Shown: positions 8,252-16,421, counted from the stretch's first letter. The stretch is DNA of 64,000 nucleotides from Thermoplasmata archaeon (GCA_034667685.1 JAXDQU010000106.1:64001-128000); one strand, 5' to 3'. The notes: generated by a model not told the origin, from the sequence alone. Made by a program: numbers and translations.

Positions 8252-9898
8252 TCACGTCTCCGCCGGCGTGTCGGCGCCGCTGGGCGTGATCTGCACGTTC
8301 AGCTCGGCCCACGCGGGTCCGGCGAAGTAGCGCACCTGGCGGCCGTCCTTGACGCGCTTGACGAGGCCGACGCCTTCGAGCTTCTCGACGTGCCAGCTGG
8401 CGAGCGAGGGCTGGATGCCCACGGCGGCGCACAATTCCTTCTGGCTGCTGCCGGGGTGCTCGACGATGAACTCGGCGACCTTCTTGGCCGTCTCGTTGCG
8501 CAGCGCGCCGTAGACGTCCTTCTTCTTGGTGTACTCGCCGGTGTTCACGAAGAAGCGCTTGTAGCGGCCGCTCTTCTTGGAGACGACGAGGCCGTGGCTC
8601 TCCAGGAGCTTGAGGTGGTAGACGGTCGTGCCCCAGCCGATGAGCGCCTTCTCGCCGATCTCGTGGGCGTGGATGCCGGGCGTGGCGCGGATCAGCTCGT
8701 AGATCTCGTCGCGCTTGCCGTGCTCCAGGACGTCCTGGCGCTCGATGCGGCTGTAGAGCGGGAGGAGGAGCGCGGTGGCGGCGAAGCGGAGGCGCGGCCA
8801 GAAGTAGACCAGCGCGGCGAGGAGGCCCGCGCCGCCCGCGCCGGCGGCGCCCGCGGCGACGAGCGCGGCGGTGCCGCTCTTGGCGTCGGGGTGCGCGGGC
8901 GGGATGACGCGGAGCGTGTCGCTCACGGTGAAGACGATGCGCGCGGGGTTGCCCGCCTTGGCGCTGACGAGCCCGAGCGAGATGGGGCCGGGGAGCGTGA
9001 CGTCCTGGTTGGAGTTGACGACGACGGGCTGGCCGTTGAGCGTCGTGTGGCCGCTGGCCTGCGCGAGCTGCGCGGAGCCGTGGACGTCCGCGATCGCGAT
9101 GCCATAGCCCACGAAGGGGGCGTCGGACTGCGCCGCGAGGTCGCCGCGCGTGACGTCGACCACGAGGAACGTCTCGTCGCCGCCGTTCGTCGCGAGCGTG
9201 GTGGGGAGGACGGTGTCGACGGCCTTGCCGGTGGCGGCGGACGTGCCGCGCAGGTGGACCTTGACGCCCTGGAGCAGCACGCGCATGCCCTGGTCCGCGC
9301 TGACGCTGCCGCCCCCGTTGGCGGAGAGCGAGAAGCCGTTCGCGTCGGCCTGGTAGAAGGGCTCGCCGGGTGCGCGCGCGGTGCTCGACGACCAGCCCGG
9401 CTCGTAGCCGGAGAGGTGCTGGGCCTGCGGGTTGGTGCCCAGCGAGGAGGCGGGGCCGGTCGTCGCGACGAGGCTGCCGGGCGCGCCGAAGCTCGGGCTG
9501 GGCGTCGCCTGCGTGCGGTTGTTGGTGACCGCGACCTGGTAGGCACCGGTCGCGCCCTCGACCGTCAGCGTCGCGTCGCGCAGCGTGTCGCCCTCGCTCT
9601 TGGGCGCAGCATCCGCGCAGCCCGACGGAAGGGGCGAGCCGCCGCTGCACGAGGCGGGGGAGTACGTGGTCGTGTTGTACGCGAGCTCCTGGGCGTTCAG
9701 CGTGAGCGCGAGGGGCTCGCTCCCCTTGGTCGAGACCCAGGAGACGACGCCACCGACGTAAGCCGAGTCCACCTTGCCGTTCAGGTAGATGGGGTCGTTG
9801 GCCTCGAACGTGCTTCCGCCGAAGTCGGCGGCCAGCGCGAAAGGGGCCAGGAGGGCGACGAGGGCCAAGGATGTGACCGCTGCGGCTCGCATGCTCAT
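8252..9898 (-). CDS. membrane-anchored transcriptional regulator: signal peptide, extracellular domain, TM helix, tandem winged-HTH
   Basis: LYSRI...RDEIYELIRATPGIH...GTTVYHL..LE, second wHTH PGSSQKEL...SLASWHV..L; TATA-like TTATA about 20 bp upstream. Confidence 0.85.
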   Translation of the reverse strand: MSMRAAAVTSLALVALLAPFALAADFGGSTFEANDPIYLNGKVDSAYVGGVVSWVSTKGSEPLALTLNAQELAYNTTTYSPASCSGGSPLPSGCADAAPKSEGDTLRDATLTVEGATGAYQVAVTNNRTQATPSPSFGAPGSLVATTGPASSLGTNPQAQHLSGYEPGWSSSTARAPGEPFYQADANGFSLSANGGGSVSADQGMRVLLQGVKVHLRGTSAATGKAVDTVLPTTLATNGGDETFLVVDVTRGDLAAQSDAPFVGYGIAIADVHGSAQLAQASGHTTLNGQPVVVNSNQDVTLPGPISLGLVSAKAGNPARIVFTVSDTLRVIPPAHPDAKSGTAALVAAGAAGAGGAGLLAALVYFWPRLRFAATALLLPLYSRIERQDVLEHGKRDEIYELIRATPGIHAHEIGEKALIGWGTTVYHLKLLESHGLVVSKKSGRYKRFFVNTGEYTKKKDVYGALRNETAKKVAEFIVEHPGSSQKELCAAVGIQPSLASWHVEKLEGVGLVKRVKDGRQVRYFAGPAWAELNVQITPSGADTPAET

Positions 9899-9987: not shown

Positions 9988-10746
9988 TCAGGCGCGGCGC
10001 GCTTTCTGGACGGCGGCGATGACCTCGCCGAGCCGGTCGAAGTGGCCGTTCTCCGCGATGGTCCCGGTGACCAGGATGTCGGCTCCGGCGGCCAGGATCG
10101 CCTCGGCCTGGGCGCCGCTCCGGATGCCGCCCCCCACCACCAGGGGGATCTTGATCGCGGCGCGGACCGCGCGCACGATCTCGACGGGGCAGGGCTCGGG
10201 CGCGCCGGAGCCGCATTCGAGGTAGACGACACGCATGCCGAACATCTCGGCCGCCAGCGCCAGGCTCGCCGCCCGCGTGGCACCCGCCGCGTCCCGCGTG
10301 ATGAGATCCGCCTGGCTGACCTGGCCGACCTTCATGCCCGGCGCGACGATGAGATAGCCCATCGGGATCGCCTCGGTGCCCAAGGCGCGCAGGAGCGGGG
10401 CGCCGCGCGCCTGCTCGCCCACGATCATGCGCGGGTCGCGCGAGTTGAGCACGCTGAGGAACCAGATCGCGTCCACGTGCGGCGACATCGCGCTCGCCGT
10501 GCTCGGGAAGAGGATCACGGGCAGGTGCGTCTTCTCCCGGACGTGCAGGACGAGCTCGTCGAGGTTCTCGCTCGACACGTCGGTGCTCCCGCCCACCATG
10601 ATCGCGTCGGTGCCGGCCTCCGCCGCCAGCGTGGCGATGCGCTCGCCCGCCTTCCCGCTGGAGGTCGCCGGATCGAGCAGCGTCATGTGGACCGGGCCGC
10701 CGCGCAGGCGCTCCTCCACGTGGGCCCACACCCTCGCGCGCGTCAC
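9988..10746 (-). CDS. geranylgeranylglyceryl phosphate synthase
   Basis: HMTLLDP, DAIMVGGS, PVILFP, SVLNS, YLECGSG and VGGGIR motifs. Confidence 0.93.
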   Translation of the reverse strand: MTRARVWAHVEERLRGGPVHMTLLDPATSSGKAGERIATLAAEAGTDAIMVGGSTDVSSENLDELVLHVREKTHLPVILFPSTASAMSPHVDAIWFLSVLNSRDPRMIVGEQARGAPLLRALGTEAIPMGYLIVAPGMKVGQVSQADLITRDAAGATRAASLALAAEMFGMRVVYLECGSGAPEPCPVEIVRAVRAAIKIPLVVGGGIRSGAQAEAILAAGADILVTGTIAENGHFDRLGEVIAAVQKARRA

Positions 10747-11579
10747 CAACCCGCCACCACCTGCGCCCGCCCCGCCACGAGGGCCGCGAGCGCCAGCACC
10801 ATCCCGGCCTTCACGAGGCGCTGGGCCCGGTCCGGACGCGAGAAGCCCGTCGCCACCGCCGCCAAGAAAGCAGCATCGGCCAAGGCGACCGCGGGAACAT
10901 AGGCCCACCCTAAAACGTTTCCCCGCCACCACGGCCACGGCGAGAGCAGCACGGTGGCCACCAGGAACGCGCCCGCCACGAGCGCCGCGCCGCGCGCCCC
11001 GACGCGCATCGGCAACGTCCGCCGCGCGCCGCGATCCGCCTCGACGTCCTCCACGTCCTTGAGCACCTCGCGCCCCACCGTCGCCAACGCCGCGAGCGCC
11101 GCGACCACGAGGACGGGCCACGCGAGCCCGCCCGCCGCCAGGCCACCCACGAGGAACGGCGCGGCCGTCAACGCGCCGATGGCGAGGTTGCCCACGAGGC
11201 CCTGCGCCTTCAGCGCGCGCTCGTACCCTTCCATCAGCGGAAGCGCGACCAGCACGAGCAGGCCCACCCACGGCGCGATCAGGAAGCCCGCCGCGAGCGC
11301 GACCGCGTAGAGGGCGAGGGCCGCGACGTTCGCCGCGCGCGCCGAGACGAGCCCTCGGGGAAGCGGCCGCGACGGATGCGCCACGCGATCGACCTCGACG
11401 TCGAGCACGTCGTTGCGCAGGTTGCCCGCCGCCGCGAACGCGACCGACGCCAGGATCGCGAGCCCGACGCGCCACGCGGGAAGGAGCGCCGCGCCCGCCA
11501 GCAGCGAGCCGGCCCACGCCCCCGCGCCCGCGACGAGCACGTTGGCGGGGCGCGTCATGCGGACCAGCGGCGCGAGCAC
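10743..11579 (-). CDS. digeranylgeranylglyceryl phosphate synthase (UbiA family)
   Basis: RMTRPAN, NDVLDVEVDRVAHPSRPLPRG, REVLKDVEDVEAD; coupled to GGGPS. Start uncertain. Confidence 0.88.
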   Translation of the reverse strand: MLAPLVRMTRPANVLVAGAGAWAGSLLAGAALLPAWRVGLAILASVAFAAAGNLRNDVLDVEVDRVAHPSRPLPRGLVSARAANVAALALYAVALAAGFLIAPWVGLLVLVALPLMEGYERALKAQGLVGNLAIGALTAAPFLVGGLAAGGLAWPVLVVAALAALATVGREVLKDVEDVEADRGARRTLPMRVGARGAALVAGAFLVATVLLSPWPWWRGNVLGWAYVPAVALADAAFLAAVATGFSRPDRAQRLVKAGMVLALAALVAGRAQVVAGW

Positions 11580-11926: not shown

Positions 11927-11944
11927 ATGTTAGGACCCTAACAT
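11927..11944. promoter_or_regulatory. palindrome ATGTTAGG-AC-CCTAACAT, candidate TrmB operator
   Basis: Perfect 8-bp arms, AT-rich, about 45 bp upstream of the first trmB-like gene. Confidence 0.5.
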
Positions 11945-11988
11945 GGTTGGGCTGACACAGATGGCCTCCCAGGGTGCCGGCTTGTAAC

Positions 11989-12762
11989 ATGACGGAGGCG
12001 ACGCTGCGGGCCGCGTTGGCCGTTCTGGGAATGGATGCCCGCGGCGCGAGCATCTACGAGCACCTCGGCGCGACGGGCTCCCAGGATGCCGCGAGCGTCG
12101 CGCTGGGCGTCGGCATCAGCAAGGGCCAAGCCTATCGCGCCCTCGATCAGCTCGTCCGCCGGGGGCAGGTCGCGGTGGAGGCGGCCGAGCCCGCGCGTTA
12201 TCGCGCGATCGACCTGACCCAGCAGGTGACGCTCGCTGCCGTGGACGAGGACTCCCGCGCGGCGGCATTGGCGGTCGCGCGGGTGGACTTCCGTGCCTTC
12301 ATCTCGACCGCGCAGGCGCCGCGCGCCCACGCGGCCGAGTGGAGGTTTCGGCCCGTCACGGGCCGGCACGCCTTCTACGTCGCCGCCCGGCGCCTCATCC
12401 TCAAAGCGAGGATCAGCGTCCTCGTCTCCCATGCGCGAGGCAGGCCGGGCCCTGACGACCGCGCGCGGAAGCTTCTCGATGCGGCCGCGGAGCAAAGGCG
12501 GAAGGAAGGCGTTCGCGTGAGCATCCTCACGCGGCCCTCCCCGACCGAGCTCGCGGGGAGTAACGCCAACGCGGTCCCAACCTTCTTCATCATCGACGCC
12601 CACGAGTGCTTGTTCCTCTCGCCCGCCGCGAACGCCGGCACGCGCGCGACGTGGACGAATGCGCTTCCCCTCGTCGCCATCGCCAAGATGCTCCACGACG
12701 AGCTACGGCAGGACGCGAGATCGCCAACGGCCGGTTCACAAGATGTTACGAGGAATCGCTAA
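11989..12762 (+). CDS. TrmB-family transcriptional regulator
   Basis: LGM...ASIYEHL...AASVA...ISKGQAYRALDQLVRRG.V...PARYRAI wHTH followed by a degenerate PLD-like effector domain (FFIIDAHECL). Confidence 0.85.
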   Translation: MTEATLRAALAVLGMDARGASIYEHLGATGSQDAASVALGVGISKGQAYRALDQLVRRGQVAVEAAEPARYRAIDLTQQVTLAAVDEDSRAAALAVARVDFRAFISTAQAPRAHAAEWRFRPVTGRHAFYVAARRLILKARISVLVSHARGRPGPDDRARKLLDAAAEQRRKEGVRVSILTRPSPTELAGSNANAVPTFFIIDAHECLFLSPAANAGTRATWTNALPLVAIAKMLHDELRQDARSPTAGSQDVTRNR

Positions 12763-12795
12763 GCCCCTGGCGACCATGCGCCTGCCGATGCGCTG

Positions 12796-13617
12796 TTGGT
12801 AGGTAACGCGCGCCCGAACGACGGTAACAACCGGAACGACCCCTCGGGGACGACGGGCGGACCCGGCGCGGCACGCGCGCTCGAAGCGCTTGGGCTCGAT
12901 CGTCGAAGCAGCGCCGTCTACGCGCATCTCTGCATCCACGGCGTCAGCAAGGCGGGCCCGATCGCGAGCGCCACGCGGCTTGGCCGCGGCGGCGTCTATC
13001 GCGCGCTGGAGGAGCTCACGAGGCGCGGTTTCGTCACCACAAGGCCGACGAGACCCAAGACGTACGAGGCCGTCGATCCGGAATCGATGTTCGCGCGCGC
13101 GATCGAGGAGAGCCAAGCGCGCAAGGCGACGATCATGGCGGCGGCCCCGGTCCTGGCCGCCTGGTGGGCGCAGGCTGCCGCTTCACGCGCATCCGACCAC
13201 GACGCGTTCCGTCTGGTCACGGGCGAGGCGAACGTCGACGCGACCGCGCGGAGGATGGCCCAGCGGGCGGAGCGCGTCCTCCGCATCTTCGACAAGAGGA
13301 CCCCGTCCGAGCGCGAGCCGGGCGCGCTGCGGGCCGATCGCATCCGCGACGCCGGGCCCCAGGCCGTCGAGCTCGACCTTGTGGACCACGCAGCGTCGGC
13401 CGCCCGCGAGGATCCCACGTCGCGGGGCGCCCACGATCCAGGCGCGCCCGCGTCATCCTGGTTCCTCGTCGCCGACGACAAGGAGGCCTTGTTCCTCGAA
13501 GACGCAGGATCGGCGCACGGCCCGATGCGGGCGACGTGGACGAACTCGCCCACGCTGGTGGCCATGGCCTCAGCCCTGCACGCGTCGCTTCGCGCCAAGA
13601 CCCGCCGACGCGCGTGA
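12796..13617 (+). CDS. TrmB-family transcriptional regulator (tandem paralog)
   Basis: LEALGLD..SAVYAHL...GVYRALEELTRRGFV...PKTYEAVDP; shares FLVADDKE and ATWTN motifs with its neighbour. Start uncertain (TTG). Confidence 0.83.
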   Translation: MVGNARPNDGNNRNDPSGTTGGPGAARALEALGLDRRSSAVYAHLCIHGVSKAGPIASATRLGRGGVYRALEELTRRGFVTTRPTRPKTYEAVDPESMFARAIEESQARKATIMAAAPVLAAWWAQAAASRASDHDAFRLVTGEANVDATARRMAQRAERVLRIFDKRTPSEREPGALRADRIRDAGPQAVELDLVDHAASAAREDPTSRGAHDPGAPASSWFLVADDKEALFLEDAGSAHGPMRATWTNSPTLVAMASALHASLRAKTRRRA

Positions 13618-13633
13618 GCCGCAGGGGCCGGGG

Positions 13634-14515
13634 TCAGAGGCGGCGCGTCAACACGAAGACGAAGATCGCCGTCCAAGCGAGGAAGAACACCCAGCCCGCG
13701 TTTTGGTGGAACACCTCGAGCGCGTGGATGCCCCAGCGCGCGCCGACGAGCGAGATGCTCACGAGACGCAGCACGTTGACGACGTAGACGCCCGCAAGCC
13801 CGACCACGCACCAGACGAGCCCCTTCCAGAAGGGCGGGCGCTCGACGGCGAGCAAGACCCCGACGAGGCCCGCGAAGAGCGCCATCGCCTGGACGCCCGA
13901 GCACGCGACGCCGACCTCCAGGGCGATCGGACCGCGCGGCGTCCCGTAGGTGATCACGCTGCCCTGGAGGCTGGGCGCATGGCCCAAGATCGATAGCACG
14001 CCGGCCAGGGGCAGGAGGAGGGCGTAGTGCGTGAAGGATTCCAAGGGCGTCGTGCCCCAGGCGGTCTTCATCGCGCCTTGGGCGGCCCACACGACGAGCG
14101 GCCCCCAAGCCAGCGGGATGGACCACAGGATCCAGGACGCCACGGGCGCCGCGCCGAGGATGCGACGGTCGCCCAGGCAGGTGGCGAGCGCGGTGCCCAA
14201 CCCGAGCCCGATGATGACGAGCTTGGGCGCGTCGAGCGGAGACGCCTTCCAGACGTCGTACGCGAGAACGCCCAGCGCGATGCCGGCCCCGAGCGCCGCG
14301 ACGAGCGCTTTCGCCGGCAGCCGTTCGAGGCGCGGCATGTTCGCGCGCCAGAGAAGAAGGACCCCGCCGAGGGCCAGGATGCTCCCGACGAGGAAGGATT
14401 CGTGGGGAACGACGCGCGTGACGATGAGGAGCCCCTGGCCGAGCGTCGCAAGCCCGATGACCGCGCGTGCGCGCGAGGCCAGGAGCGTCTTCATCATCCC
14501 TTGGTCATGGCTCAT
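13634..14515 (-). CDS. archaeosortase/exosortase family transpeptidase
   Basis: Multi-TM protein with the catalytic triad motifs [13 protein letters not shown] and FHQNAG; SD AGGAGG upstream. Confidence 0.92.
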
Positions 14516-14537
14516 CGTCGTTCCCCTCCTGCCTAAC

Positions 14538-16421
14538 TCACCCTTGCCGCTTCTTGCGCCAGACGACGACGCCGACCACCGCGATGGCGCCCAGGACGCC
14601 GATCGCGAGCGACGCGACGCTGGGGAAGAACGGCACTTGCGCCGTGGGCGGCGTAGACGTGCAGTTGTGCGTGCACGATCCCGGCGGGCCCTGCGGACCC
14701 GTCGGGCCCCTTTCGCCACGCGGACCCTGCGGCCCAGCGGGCCCGGTCGCGCCCGGCGGCCCGGGGGGACCCGCGGGGCCCGGCGGACCGGCAGGACCGA
14801 CCGCGCCATCTTGGCCGTTCGTGCCGTTCGTTCCGTTGACGCCGTTCTCGCCGGCAGGGCCAGGCGGACCGGCGGGGCCCATCGGACCCTGGGGGCCGGG
14901 CTGGCCGTCCGGGCCCGTGGAACCCTGGGGGCCGGGCGGGCCGGCGGGTCCAGGCGGACCCGCGGGGCCAGCAGGGCCGGCGGGACCGGCGGCGCCATCC
15001 GCGCCGTTCGTGCCGTTCATGCCGGCGGGTCCTGGGGGACCCGGAGGCCCGGCGGGACCGGTCTCACCCGGAGCGCCATTCGTACCGTTCGTGCCGGGCG
15101 GGCCAGCGGGGCCAGCAGGTCCAGCCGGGCCAGCGGGACCAGCAGGGCCGGTGGGTCCAGCAGGGCCGGTTTCACCAGGGGCACCGTTCGTGCCGTTTGT
15201 GCCCGCAGGACCAGCAGGACCAGCAGGACCAGCAGGACCAGCGGGTCCAGCCGGGCCAGCGGGACCAGTTTCACCAGGAGCGCCGTTCGTGCCATTCGTC
15301 CCGTTGGTGCCCGCGGGACCGGGGGGGCCGGCGGGTCCCGCAGGACCGGCCGGGCCTGCCGGGCCCGTGGCGCCGTCAGCTCCGTTCGTGCCGTTCGTGC
15401 CCGCCGGACCGGCCGGTCCCGGCGGACCTGCGGGACCCATGGGGCCCGTGGCGCCGTCGGTACCGTTGGTGCCGTTCGCGCCGGCGGGACCGGCCGGCCC
15501 GGGAGGACCTGCCGGGCCTTCGGGGCCCATCGGGCCCGTCGCGCCGTCCGTGCCGTTGGTCCCGTTGGTGCCTGCGGGGCCAGGCGGACCCATGGGACCC
15601 GCAGGGCCCGCAGGACCGGCCGGCCCGGGCGGGCCCTGCATGCATGAGCACGGGCAGTTGCATCCCTGGGGGAGGCTGACCGTGTTCGTGTCGAGCGTGA
15701 CCGCGCCCGTGCGCGCGAGGAGCCGTCCGTCGACGGTCGCGCCCGTGGTGGCCGTGATGCTGTCCTGGGCCATGACCGTGCCCACCATCGTGGAGGTCGT
15801 TCCCAGCGTGGCGGAGGACCCGACCTGCCAGAACACGTTGCACGCCGTGGCGTTCCCCACGAGCTGGACGACGCTCGCGCTCGCGGTCGTCAAGGCCGAG
15901 CCGACCTGGAAGATGAAGACGGCGTTGGGATCGCCGCCGCCATCGAGCGTGAGCGTGCCCGTGATGCCCAACGACGAGTTCGCCGTGTAGACGCCCGGCG
16001 TGAGCGTCTGGCCGCCGATGTCGCCCGAGACGTAGAAGTCCGTGGGCTGCGCGGCCGCGTCGAGGTACGCGTGCGTGAGGTCGGCTTGAGCTTGCGCGGC
16101 GACCGCGTCGCCGGCGAAGATCTTGCCGTTGACCACGACGCCGGGGCCGGCATCCACGGATTGGAATCCAGTGACGGCGGTGCCCGGACTCACGCCGAGG
16201 TTGCCGCTGACCACCGTGGGTCCCGTGTTCGTGACCGTGGATCCCCCGAGCACGGCGAAGGTGCGCGCGGTCCCGAGGTCCGGGGCCGTGCCGGAGGCTT
16301 GCGCGCCCGGCGAGGCCAGCACGAGAACGACCATGATGGTCGCGACCAACGCGAGGTTGAACGCGGCCCGCGTCCTGGCCGCGCGGTCTCCTGCTTCGCT
16401 TGATGCGTTCCTTGATATCAA
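14538..16421 (-). CDS. ice-binding (DUF3494) domain + collagen-like stalk + C-terminal sorting signal
   Basis: Signal peptide; [37 protein letters not shown] (DUF3494); 106 Gly-X-Y triplets; VPFFP-TM-RKKR tail. TTG start uncertain. Confidence 0.92.
14682..15635 (-). repeat. collagen Gly-X-Y coding repeat with 8 GxN-GTN modules
   Basis: Uninterrupted triplet periodicity in the translation. Confidence 0.95.

What the first reader, a model, noticed from the sequence alone, without database searches (positions are those of the whole stretch)
11927..16421. Dedicated archaeosortase plus ice-binding collagen fibre cassette with a non-canonical VPFFP sorting signal
Seen: the substrate gene (signal peptide, DUF3494, Cys cluster, collagen, Cys pair, VPFFPS, TM helix, RKKR) is followed 22 bp later by an archaeosortase with an intact Cys/Arg/His triad, and the pair converges on two TrmB paralogues. 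Known: archaeosortases process tripartite tails (PGF-, PEF-, PIP-, VPXXXP-CTERM), and dedicated enzymes are often adjacent to their substrates; DUF3494 binds ice. VPFFP matches none of those motifs exactly and is closest to PEF-CTERM (VPEFP). Inference: a new sortase/signal pair displaying a trimeric ice or surface adhesin above the archaeal envelope.
Basis: partly seen in the sequence, partly recalled or inferred. Interest (0 to 1): 0.85.

Follow-up and report, generated by a model that had tools for sequence, protein, structure and literature searches.

The report
Archaeal sortase cassette with ice-binding collagen stalk
A soil archaeon encodes a surface protein with an ice-binding-type head on a long collagen stalk, next to its own membrane sorting enzyme; the pair belongs to an uncatalogued cousin of a known archaeal protein-anchoring system.

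Summary
At 14538-16421(-) lies a 627-aa gene with a signal peptide, a DUF3494 head, a CNCPCSC cluster, 107 unbroken Gly-X-Y triplets, CTHNC, VPFFPS, a TM helix and RKKR. After a 22-bp gap comes a 293-aa archaeosortase (13634-14515). It converges on two TrmB-like genes.

The enzyme's best match is archaeosortase C, at 68 bits against a cut-off of 100. The tail matches no curated C-terminal sorting model, PEF-CTERM included. The pair is not a one-off. Homologous sortases in uncultured Thermoplasmatota sit directly after genes ending in [VI]P[FV]F + TM + basic tails. In a 301-genome phylum sample, 18 genomes have both enzyme clade and tail, 1 has only the enzyme, 2 have only the tail and 280 have neither. 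A true ArtC genome carries [VI]PEF tails instead, and the two tail models do not cross-hit.

"Dedicated" is only partly right, because this genome has two such sortases and four such tails. The collagen stalk is unique to this locus in the data searched. Ice binding is untested, and the TrmB link is not conserved.

This scan had already noted the same family on other DNA (IPVFP cassette, e1-1231915). Verdict: a new variant of a known kind, of moderate interest.

The parts
14538..16421 (-). Cargo gene, 627 aa: signal peptide, DUF3494 head, collagen stalk and tripartite C-terminal sorting tail
   Evidence: ORF. Pfam PF11999 scores 225.3 bits and PF01391 168.6 bits.
16296..16421 (-). Signal peptide, aa 1-42: basic n-region, hydrophobic core, AQA|SG
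   Evidence: Read from the sequence. The cleavage site is inferred; no predictor was run.
15678..16253 (-). DUF3494 / ice-binding-like beta-solenoid head, aa 57-248
   Evidence: The closest solved chain is 6eio_A 'Antifreeze protein', 181.5 bits over aa 45-251. It is the only PF11999 match in the genome.
15642..15662 (-). Cys cluster CNCPCSC, aa 254-260, at the head/stalk junction
   Evidence: C194 and C254 align with Cys in the two-domain ice-binding protein 5uyt. That leaves C256, C258 and C260 as candidates for interchain disulfides (inference).
14673..15635 (-). Collagen-like domain: 107 uninterrupted Gly-X-Y triplets, aa 263-583, with 12 N-G-T sequons
   Evidence: Pro fills 67 of 107 X positions; Ala fills 40, Pro 19 and Asn 19 of the Y positions. 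The DNA shows imperfect 81-99 nt repeats.
14661..14675 (-). Cys pair CTHNC, aa 583-587, at the stalk/tail junction
14619..14636 (-). Sorting motif VPFFPS, aa 596-601
   Evidence: It is the conserved core of tail alignment A1, where Pro is invariant.
14559..14618 (-). C-terminal hydrophobic helix, aa 602-621
14547..14558 (-). Basic cluster RKKR, aa 622-625
14516..14537 (-). 22-bp intergenic spacer with a Shine-Dalgarno-like AGGAGGGG
   Evidence: Co-transcription is inferred.
13634..14515 (-). ArtC-like archaeosortase, 293 aa, about 8 TM helices. Conserved C205 (13901-13903), R250 (13766-13768) and H270 (13706-13708).
   Evidence: AlphaFold2 model has pLDDT 87.3 and pTM 0.79.
12796..13617 (+). 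TrmB-HTH regulator-like gene 2, convergent with the sortase (16 bp between stop codons)
   Evidence: PF01978 49.7 bits. NCBIfam TrmB equivalogs score 20-26 bits against cut-offs of 500-650. A link to the cassette is not supported.
11974..12762 (+). TrmB-HTH regulator-like gene 1, paralogue of gene 2 (31.6% identity over 247 aa)

Best explanation
This is a two-gene operon for an archaeosortase-sorted surface fibre.

Inferred sequence of events:
- The cargo is exported by its N-terminal signal peptide.
- It is held transiently in the membrane by its C-terminal helix, with RKKR on the cytoplasmic side.
- Three chains zip into a collagen triple helix about 90 nm long. This follows from 321 residues at the canonical rise of 0.286 nm.
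- Cys clusters at both ends staple the helix.
- The stalk is probably N-glycosylated at its 12 N-G-T sequons.
- It carries three DUF3494 beta-solenoid heads at the distal end.

Sorting step:
- The downstream enzyme is an ArtC-like archaeosortase with conserved Cys205, Arg250 and His270.
- It recognises the [VI]P[FV]F motif at the outer membrane face, cleaves off the helix and transfers the protein to an acceptor.
- For ArtA the proposed acceptor is archaetidylethanolamine; here it is unknown.

Family placement:
- Enzyme and signal belong to an uncatalogued, Thermoplasmatota-restricted sister system of ArtC/PEF-CTERM. In it the acidic Glu of [VI]PEF is replaced by Phe, Val or Thr.
- The window copy is a fast-evolving paralogue that has the collagen-stalked DUF3494 protein as its neighbouring cargo.

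Shown versus inferred:
- Shown: domain content, gene order, conservation of the pairing, co-occurrence, and separation from the ArtC/PEF models.
- Inferred: cleavage, anchoring, trimerisation, glycosylation and the ligand of the head. I put ice at about 40% and another solid surface at about 45%.
For: Enzyme:
- It passes TIGR04178 (60.9 bits against a cut-off of 23). ArtC is its best specific model but falls below the cut-off, 68.2 against 100.
- 20 of 20 scanned relatives also fall below it, at 38.7-82.7 bits.
- 0 of the 150 nearest 50%-cluster representatives reach ArtC at E<=1e-28.

Tail:
- No CTERM model is over its cut-off. TIGR03024 found 6 weak matches in the genome, none of them a PFF tail.
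- Positive control: genome G069 has a true ArtC (361.1 bits) and 11 PEF-CTERM tails over the cut-off that read [VI]PEF. My PFF tail model A1 finds 0 tails there.

Adjacency of a [VI]P[FVT]F + TM + basic tail gene to the sortase:
- 14 of 17 clade loci from relatives.
- 7 of 12 metagenome loci.
- 13 of 18 species-genome loci.
- Some loci recur between these sets.

Co-occurrence in 301 Thermoplasmatota genomes:
- 18 genomes have both, 1 has only the sortase (G270, 89% complete), 2 have only the tail (G014 at 76% and G020 at 72% complete), and 280 have neither.
- Five of the 18 (G142, G190, G201, G237, G288) lie outside the class and outside the training tails.

Phylogeny:
- PFF-linked sortases form two supported clades (91/96 and 93/94), apart from the PEF-linked clade (91/81).
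- Holding the two PFF clades together as one is not rejected (AU p=0.33).

Other:
- Catalytic-type residues are conserved (for 150 representatives).
- A congener has a DUF3494 protein with an FN3-like spacer and a VPFFPG tail, so the head is a recurring client of this signal.
- The ArtA mechanism is taken from passages of PMC6098224, PMC7157517 and PMC9263693.
Against: - There is no experimental evidence of cleavage or anchoring for any member of this clade, or for ArtC itself in the papers I read.
- 3 of 17 clade loci showed no tail within 1.5 kb, and 5 of 18 showed none directly upstream.
- G270 has the enzyme but no tail hit.
- The tree backbone is unresolved. The free tree needs 2 changes for the PFF label, and only 4% of bootstrap trees show a single change.
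- The signal differs from PEF-CTERM by a single core residue and ArtC is the best model. A curator could therefore lump this clade as divergent ArtC. JGI names a 47%-identical homologue 'archaeosortase C (PEF-CTERM variant)'.
- The tail model was built from tails chosen because they lie next to the sortase, so the within-class co-occurrence is partly circular.
- Which of the genome's two paralogous sortases serves which of the four tails cannot be told.
- Ice: DUF3494 proteins occur in many non-freezing habitats, where their function is unknown (passages of PMC11645318).
- The head's nearest sequence relatives include soil Arthrobacter and Cryobacterium proteins.
Confidence: 0.7

Rival explanations
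1. Ordinary archaeosortase C with PEF-CTERM. The enzyme is simply a divergent ArtC and VPFFP is within the natural spread of the PEF-CTERM signal, so nothing needs a new name.
For: - ArtC is the top specific NCBIfam hit.
- The motif differs from [VI]PEF at one position.
- Other Thermoplasmatota sortases that also score below the ArtC cut-off sit next to TPEFP, IPEYP and IPELP tails. The ArtC model therefore clearly under-covers the phylum.
- JGI labels one homologue as ArtC.
Against: - The score is 68.2 against a cut-off of 100, and 20 of 20 relatives are also below it.
- The tail models do not cross-hit in either direction.
- PFF-linked and PEF-linked enzymes fall in separate supported clades.
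- The acidic-to-hydrophobic change at the third core position holds in all 17 tails of A1.
- The clade has its own conserved residues that other sortases lack, for example G26, E39, P97 and W275.
Confidence: 0.15
2. The tail is only a permanent transmembrane anchor. The protein stays helix-anchored, and the neighbouring sortase acts on other substrates or has another role.
For: - No processing data exist.
- Two of the four PFF-tailed genes in this genome are not next to a sortase.
Against: - A plain anchor does not need a conserved [VI]P[FV]F motif at a fixed distance from the helix.
- It also would not track one enzyme clade across 301 genomes.
- The cargo-then-sortase gene order recurs in many lineages.
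Confidence: 0.07
3. The head is not an ice binder in nature. The DUF3494 solenoid adheres to another solid or polymer (mineral, polysaccharide, another cell), and the fibre is a general soil adhesin.
For: [quoted passage not shown]
- The two runs that hold most of the stretch are soil metagenomes.
- Close homologues occur in soil Actinobacteria.
- NCBIfam's IBP equivalog scores 114.1 bits against a cut-off of 400.
Against: - The closest solved chains are deposited as antifreeze or ice-binding proteins: 6eio_A at 181.5 bits and 5uyt_A at 168.8 bits. The alignment covers the whole domain.
- Seasonally frozen soil is compatible with ice binding.
- DUF3494 + collagen is listed among ice-associated architectures in Arctic metagenomes (PMC9957290 main-text table and discussion passage).
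Confidence: 0.45

Closest known systems
Archaeosortase C (TIGR03762) with PEF-CTERM (TIGR03024), as described by Haft, Payne and Selengut 2012 (paper not held here; cited through PMC6098224 and PMC5244752)
   Same: - Same superfamily and the same conserved Cys, Arg and His positions.
- ArtC is the best specific model.
- Tripartite tail with a [VI]P-x-F core, a helix and a basic cluster.
- Enzyme often encoded next to a client.
   Different: - Scores below the ArtC cut-off (68.2 against 100).
- The core reads [VI]P[FVT]F instead of [VI]PEF, and the tail models do not cross-hit.
- Separate clades in the tree.
- Restricted to uncultured Thermoplasmatota in the collections searched.
Archaeosortase A / PGF-CTERM of Haloferax volcanii (the only experimentally studied archaeosortase)
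   Same: - The mechanism proposed here is borrowed from it: Cys-dependent cleavage of a tripartite C-terminal signal, then covalent anchoring.
- This genome also has a true ArtA (145.1 bits against a cut-off of 75) with a PssD homologue right after it.
   Different: - Different subfamily and a different motif.
- No pssA/pssD-type gene lies beside the window sortase, so the acceptor is unknown.
Streptococcal Scl1/Scl2 'lollipop' adhesins (LPXTG-anchored collagen-like proteins; NCBIfam NF038329 and NF038330)
   Same: - Same overall design: N-terminal globular head, collagen triple-helix stalk and a C-terminal sortase-type anchor.
- The collagen region scores 167.6 and 118.7 bits against these models.
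   Different: - Both scores are below the cut-offs (325 and 400), and the match covers the collagen region only.
- The head is DUF3494.
- The anchor is archaeosortase-type rather than LPXTG/sortase A.
- The host is an archaeon.
DUF3494 ice-binding proteins and ice adhesins (e.g. PDB 6eio, 5uyt; the DUF3494+collagen architecture listed in PMC9957290)
   Same: - Full-length DUF3494 domain.
- The pfam11999_pfam01391 architecture has been seen before in Arctic metagenomes.
- The tethered-head logic of ice adhesins.
   Different: - Anchored by an archaeosortase-type signal.
- Soil archaeal host.
- Activity untested.
- None of the best 120 length-matched homologues of the head carries PF01391.

Membership tests
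Exosortase/archaeosortase superfamily (TIGR04178, PF09721) | Signature domain scores over the curated cut-off | tested here: met
   TIGR04178 scores 60.9 bits against 23, and PF09721 scores 45.2 against 25.7.
Exosortase/archaeosortase superfamily (TIGR04178, PF09721) | Conserved Cys and Arg (plus His) in the C-terminal half | tested here: met
   C205, N247, R250 and H270 are conserved in at least 95% of clade rows and at least 85% of other rows. Cys, Arg and His are at least 90% conserved in the 150 representatives.
Exosortase/archaeosortase superfamily (TIGR04178, PF09721) | Polytopic membrane protein (about 8 TM) | tested here: met
   About 8 hydrophobic segments. The AlphaFold2 model has 8 long helices at pLDDT 87.3. 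No solved homologue exists in the PDB copy: 0 matches at E<=0.001.
Archaeosortase C (TIGR03762) | Score of at least 100 bits | tested here: not met
   68.2 bits. The paralogue scores 73.0. 20 of 20 relatives score 38.7-82.7.
Archaeosortase C (TIGR03762) | Genome encodes PEF-CTERM clients (TIGR03024, at least 23 bits) | tested here: not met
   0 matches over the cut-off in the genome; the best is 16.6 bits, on a different protein. The control genome G069 has 11.
Archaeosortase C (TIGR03762) | Groups with true ArtC in a tree | tested here: inconclusive
   True ArtC (L035) groups with the PEF-linked L037 and L043 (91/81), not with the window clade. The backbone is unresolved.
PEF-CTERM sorting domain (TIGR03024) | Tripartite tail: motif, hydrophobic helix, basic cluster | tested here: met
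   VPFFPS, a 20-residue helix and RKKR.
PEF-CTERM sorting domain (TIGR03024) | Model score over the cut-off, with a Pro-Glu-Phe core | tested here: not met
   Not reported even at E<=10. The core is Pro-Phe-Phe.
DUF3494 / ice-binding-like (PF11999) | Domain scores over the gathering cut-off | tested here: met
   225.3 bits against 28.7. There are 25 PDB relatives at E<=1e-5.
DUF3494 / ice-binding-like (PF11999) | Ice-binding activity (thermal hysteresis, recrystallisation inhibition) | not testable with these tools
   Homology only. NCBIfam IBP_CFB scores 114.1 against a cut-off of 400.
Collagen triple-helix repeat (PF01391) | Long uninterrupted Gly-X-Y run, Pro-rich | tested here: met
   107 triplets with Pro at 67 of 107 X positions. 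PF01391 scores 168.6 bits. Trimer formation was not tested.
TrmB sugar-sensing regulators | Equivalog score, meaning the N-terminal HTH plus the C-terminal sensing domain | tested here: not met
   Only the HTH (PF01978) passes. NCBIfam TrmB, TrmBL1 and TrmBL2 score 20-26 bits against cut-offs of 500-650.

The most novel reading that the evidence does not exclude
The window sortase is a fast-evolving private paralogue: terminal branch 1.12, against 0.14-0.34 for its clade mates. On this reading it has specialised in processing a trimeric, glycosylated collagen fibre whose three DUF3494 heads bind ice. A soil archaeon would then wear a fur of ice adhesins about 90 nm long. That would be the first archaeal ice adhesin and the first sortase-anchored archaeal collagen. 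The PEF-to-PFF switch would be a natural one-residue specificity code that keeps five sorting systems in one cell apart.
Probability: 0.15. Interest if true: 0.8.

Novelty: new variant of a known kind. Interest (0 to 1): 0.5.

Why it matters
- Only ArtA has been studied experimentally among archaeosortases, so what sets their substrate specificity is open.
- This genome carries five family members: a true ArtA, two of the PFF type, one ArtB-like and one Xrt-like. It also shows at least three tail classes.
- The PFF and PEF signals differ at one core residue. This gives a clean natural system for asking how a sorting enzyme reads its signal, testable by motif swaps.
- The family could be given its own enzyme and tail models. 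Those would re-annotate dozens of 'hypothetical' surface proteins in uncultured soil and groundwater Thermoplasmatota.
- The cargo shows that archaea reuse the bacterial head-stalk-anchor adhesin design with a collagen stalk. It is also a candidate for a cell-tethered ice or surface binder in soil.

Tried and rejected
- Complex prediction of the sortase (A3) with the 40-aa tail (A1): no verdict, score 0.29 against a mark of 0.32, controls not run. This is not evidence either way.
- The look-up of sequencing runs listed no RNA holder.
The assembly of the repeat region is therefore not independently verified.
- The first metagenome scan with the single protein found nothing. The second, with alignment A3, gave 12 loci.
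- The Haft 2012 paper (PMC3256604) is not held, so its definitions are cited second-hand.
- TrmB link: phmmer with both paralogues found no hit even at E<=10. The target was 867 ORFs from 10 other cassette neighbourhoods plus contig C92 and the first 8 kb of contig C68.
- The best TrmB relatives in 5 related genomes are about 32% identical and belong to a large family with 4-8 matches per genome. I reject a conserved regulatory link.
- Fold search of the sortase model against the PDB gave no match at E<=0.001.
- Pfam scan of 10 neighbouring cargos from other loci gave none over a cut-off.
- A conserved Cys just upstream of the motif is seen in most class-level tails. It is missing from many tails, which have Thr/Ser/Pro-rich linkers instead. 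I do not count it as part of the signal.
- Literature: searches for PFF-CTERM, IPFF-CTERM, 'archaeosortase C', ArtC and Thermoplasmatota and for PEF-CTERM and archaeosortase found no description of this variant. Only these two searches back that statement.

Full report
**Observation**

The window is part of contig C106 of a 3.48-Mb, 99%-complete genome. GC content around the locus is 0.68-0.78.

On the minus strand, 14538-16421 encodes a 627-aa protein:
- A signal peptide ending AQA|SG.
- A DUF3494/Ice_binding domain (PF11999, 225.3 bits, aa 57-248).
- The cluster CNCPCSC.
- 107 uninterrupted Gly-X-Y triplets, aa 263-583. Pro fills 67 of 107 X positions, and 12 N-G-T sequons lie in the run.
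- CTHNC, then VPFFPS, a 20-residue hydrophobic helix and RKKR.

After a 22-bp spacer with a Shine-Dalgarno-like AGGAGGGG starts a 293-aa protein at 13634-14515. It passes the exosortase/archaeosortase signature models.
- It has about 8 hydrophobic helices.
- It keeps C205, N247, R250 and H270, positions conserved across the family.
- Its stop lies 16 bp from the stop of the second of two convergent TrmB-HTH genes, which are 31.6% identical to each other.

**Is it ArtC/PEF-CTERM?**

The enzyme's best specific NCBIfam model is archaeosortase C, at 68.2 bits against a curated cut-off of 100.
- Twenty of twenty relatives that I scanned are also below it, at 38.7-82.7 bits.
- None of the 150 nearest representatives from 1.84 billion proteins reaches ArtC at E<=1e-28.
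- The tail alone hits no C-terminal sorting model above its cut-off.
- A whole-genome search with PEF-CTERM (TIGR03024) at E<=10 returns six weak matches, none of them this tail.

As a positive control, one of 301 Thermoplasmatota genomes (G069) has a true ArtC at 361.1 bits.
- It has 11 PEF-CTERM tails over the cut-off, and they read [VI]PEF.
- My model of the present tails finds none there.

So the nearest known signal is PEF-CTERM, one core residue away, but enzyme and tail both fall outside the curated families.

**It is a family, not a one-off**

The genome has five archaeosortase-family genes:
- A true ArtA (145.1 bits against a cut-off of 75).
- An ArtB-like gene, already noted by this scan as e1-929594.
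- An XrtA-like gene.
- Two ArtC-like paralogues, the window copy and one on contig C122.

The C122 copy also follows a gene ending in IPFFPS + helix + RRRT. Two more VPFFPT tails lie on contigs C92 and C68, away from any sortase. The C68 one is in an apparently frame-shifted ORF.

In relatives, a gene ending in [VI]P[FVT]F + helix + basic cluster lies beside the homologous sortase in:
- 14 of 17 clade loci.
- 7 of 12 metagenome loci.
- 13 of 18 species-genome loci, directly upstream on the same strand.

All 18 species-genome records are uncultured MAGs. Most are labelled Thermoplasmata or Thermoplasmatota, and a few carry other labels.

**Co-occurrence**

I used the window sortase at E<=1e-20, a threshold that separated clade from non-clade hits. 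I used tail model A1 (17 tails) at E<=1e-5. Both were run over the same 301-genome phylum sample.
- 18 genomes have both enzyme and tail.
- 1 has only the enzyme (G270, 89% complete).
- 2 have only the tail (G014 at 76% and G020 at 72% complete).
- 280 have neither.

The within-class part is partly circular, because A1 was built from sortase-adjacent tails. However, five genomes outside the class and outside the training set (G142, G190, G201, G237, G288) also show both. Kin are not independent, so I give no p-value.

Genomes carry 1-10 tail matches per 1-3 sortases. The system is therefore small and multi-client, not strictly one enzyme to one cargo.

**Phylogeny**

A 36-row tree puts PFF-linked sortases in two supported clades.
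- Clade A (91/96) holds the window copy, its C122 paralogue and three relatives.
- Clade B (93/94) holds 14 rows.
- Enzymes whose neighbours end in PEF-type tails, including true ArtC, form another clade (91/81).

The backbone is open. One origin of the PFF clades is not rejected (AU p=0.33) but is not shown either.

The window sortase has a long terminal branch, 1.12 against 0.14-0.34 for its clade mates. It has no orthologue among the species genomes. Its closest proteins are metagenomic, at 67-71% identity, and I could not read their neighbours.

**The cargo**

The head aligns over its full length with the solved chain 6eio_A ('Antifreeze protein', 181.5 bits) and with both domains of 5uyt_A ('Ice-binding protein'). 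C194 and C254 align with Cys residues of 5uyt. That suggests an intradomain disulfide and leaves three Cys per chain at the stalk's start (inference).

It is the only DUF3494 domain in the genome, and 4 of 21 class genomes have one. Its best homologues are bacterial, at 43-65% identity. This points to horizontal acquisition (inference).

A congener has the same head with an FN3-like spacer and a VPFFPG tail, far from its sortase. The head is thus a recurring client, while the collagen stalk is particular to this genome.
- No collagen was seen in any other cassette.
- None of the best 120 head homologues carries PF01391.
- The DUF3494 + collagen architecture as such has been listed from Arctic metagenomes (PMC9957290, discussion passage and main-text table row).
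- Collagen-like proteins in archaea are known (PMC11923368 passages).
- Neighbouring cargos elsewhere are small proteins with no Pfam match over a cut-off (0 of 10).

**Mechanism**

This is by analogy with ArtA (passages of PMC6098224, PMC7157517 and PMC9263693).
- Export through the Sec pathway.
- Transient helix anchoring.
- Cys-dependent cleavage at the motif.
- Transfer to an acceptor.

This genome's PssD homologue sits right after ArtA, not near the window sortase, so the acceptor here is unknown. Earlier notes of this scan (e1-2610832, e1-5055998) propose an aminoacyl-sugar acceptor for ArtC systems; I did not test that.

Three chains would form a triple helix of about 90 nm (321 residues at 0.286 nm), stapled at both ends, holding three heads away from the membrane. 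This is the design of the streptococcal Scl 'lollipop' adhesins, whose models match the collagen part below their cut-offs.

Whether the head binds ice is open. DUF3494 proteins also occur in non-freezing habitats, where their function is unknown (PMC11645318 passages).

**TrmB genes and surroundings**

The two TrmB-HTH genes pass only the HTH model.
- They have no counterpart near 10 other cassettes.
- They have no close orthologue in 5 related genomes.
- Their convergence on the cassette is real, but nothing supports a functional link.

Flanking genes are housekeeping or unrelated: PcrB, UbiA, a membrane HTH regulator, a response regulator and NMD3.

**Limits**
- No expression data were found.
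- The read-level check of the collagen repeat assembly could not be run.
- The complex prediction gave no verdict.
- Only one true ArtC sequence was available for the tree.
- The founding paper on archaeosortases was not held.

**Verdict**

It is overstated on three points: uniqueness, 'dedicated', and ice binding. This scan had already met the same family elsewhere (e1-1231915, IPVFP tails), and I re-found such tails. It is a new variant of a known kind, of moderate interest.

Noticed in passing
G000 contig C122:54179-56183 (locus L026): A paralogous cassette: a 216-aa secreted protein with PPPCT-x-DC repeats and an IPFFPS tail, then a small ORF, then an ArtC-like sortase (73.0 bits to ArtC, 49% identical to the window copy).
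   Followed up: partly
L026:2330-2638(-) and L007:1149-1415(+): A small ORF lies between cargo and sortase in the C122-type cassette of two species. It ends in ESLGLC + helix + LLARRA, 69% identical over 32 aa. It may be a third component and is absent from the window cassette.
   Followed up: partly
G000 contigs C92:2856-3389(-) and C68:248-334(-): Two further VPFFPT-tailed genes lie away from any sortase. The C68 gene seems split between two reading frames, either a frameshift or an assembly error.
   Followed up: partly
G000, many contigs: About a dozen PGF-CTERM-type tails and five [VL]PGPxP tails (VPXXXP-like) occur in the same genome. That makes at least three tail classes for five sortase-family enzymes.
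   Followed up: no
G000 contig C34:4882-6657: The true ArtA is followed directly by a phosphatidylserine-decarboxylase homologue (PF02666, 136.9 bits). This is the artA-pssD linkage described for Methanosarcina.
   Followed up: partly
L037, L043, L024 (other Thermoplasmatota): Sortases that score below the ArtC cut-off (63.9-82.3 bits) sit next to genes ending in TPEFP, IPEYP and IPELP tails. The curated ArtC model seems to under-cover PEF-type systems in this phylum.
   Followed up: no
window 8252-9898(-): A 548-aa protein with a signal-like start, a large extracytoplasmic part, a membrane helix and two cytoplasmic winged-helix domains (HVO_0163 N-terminal HTH, MarR-like). It looks like a membrane-tethered transcription regulator.
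   Followed up: partly
window 9988-11558(-): PcrB-family (GGGP synthase-type) and UbiA prenyltransferase genes lie in tandem, about 0.4 kb beyond the TrmB-like pair. They make the archaeal lipid core. No link to the cassette was shown.
   Followed up: no
L090, L092, L096, L097, L100, L104: Public MAG records labelled Proteobacteria, Halobacteriales or 'bacterium' carry this Thermoplasmatota-type cassette. The labels look unreliable.
   Followed up: no
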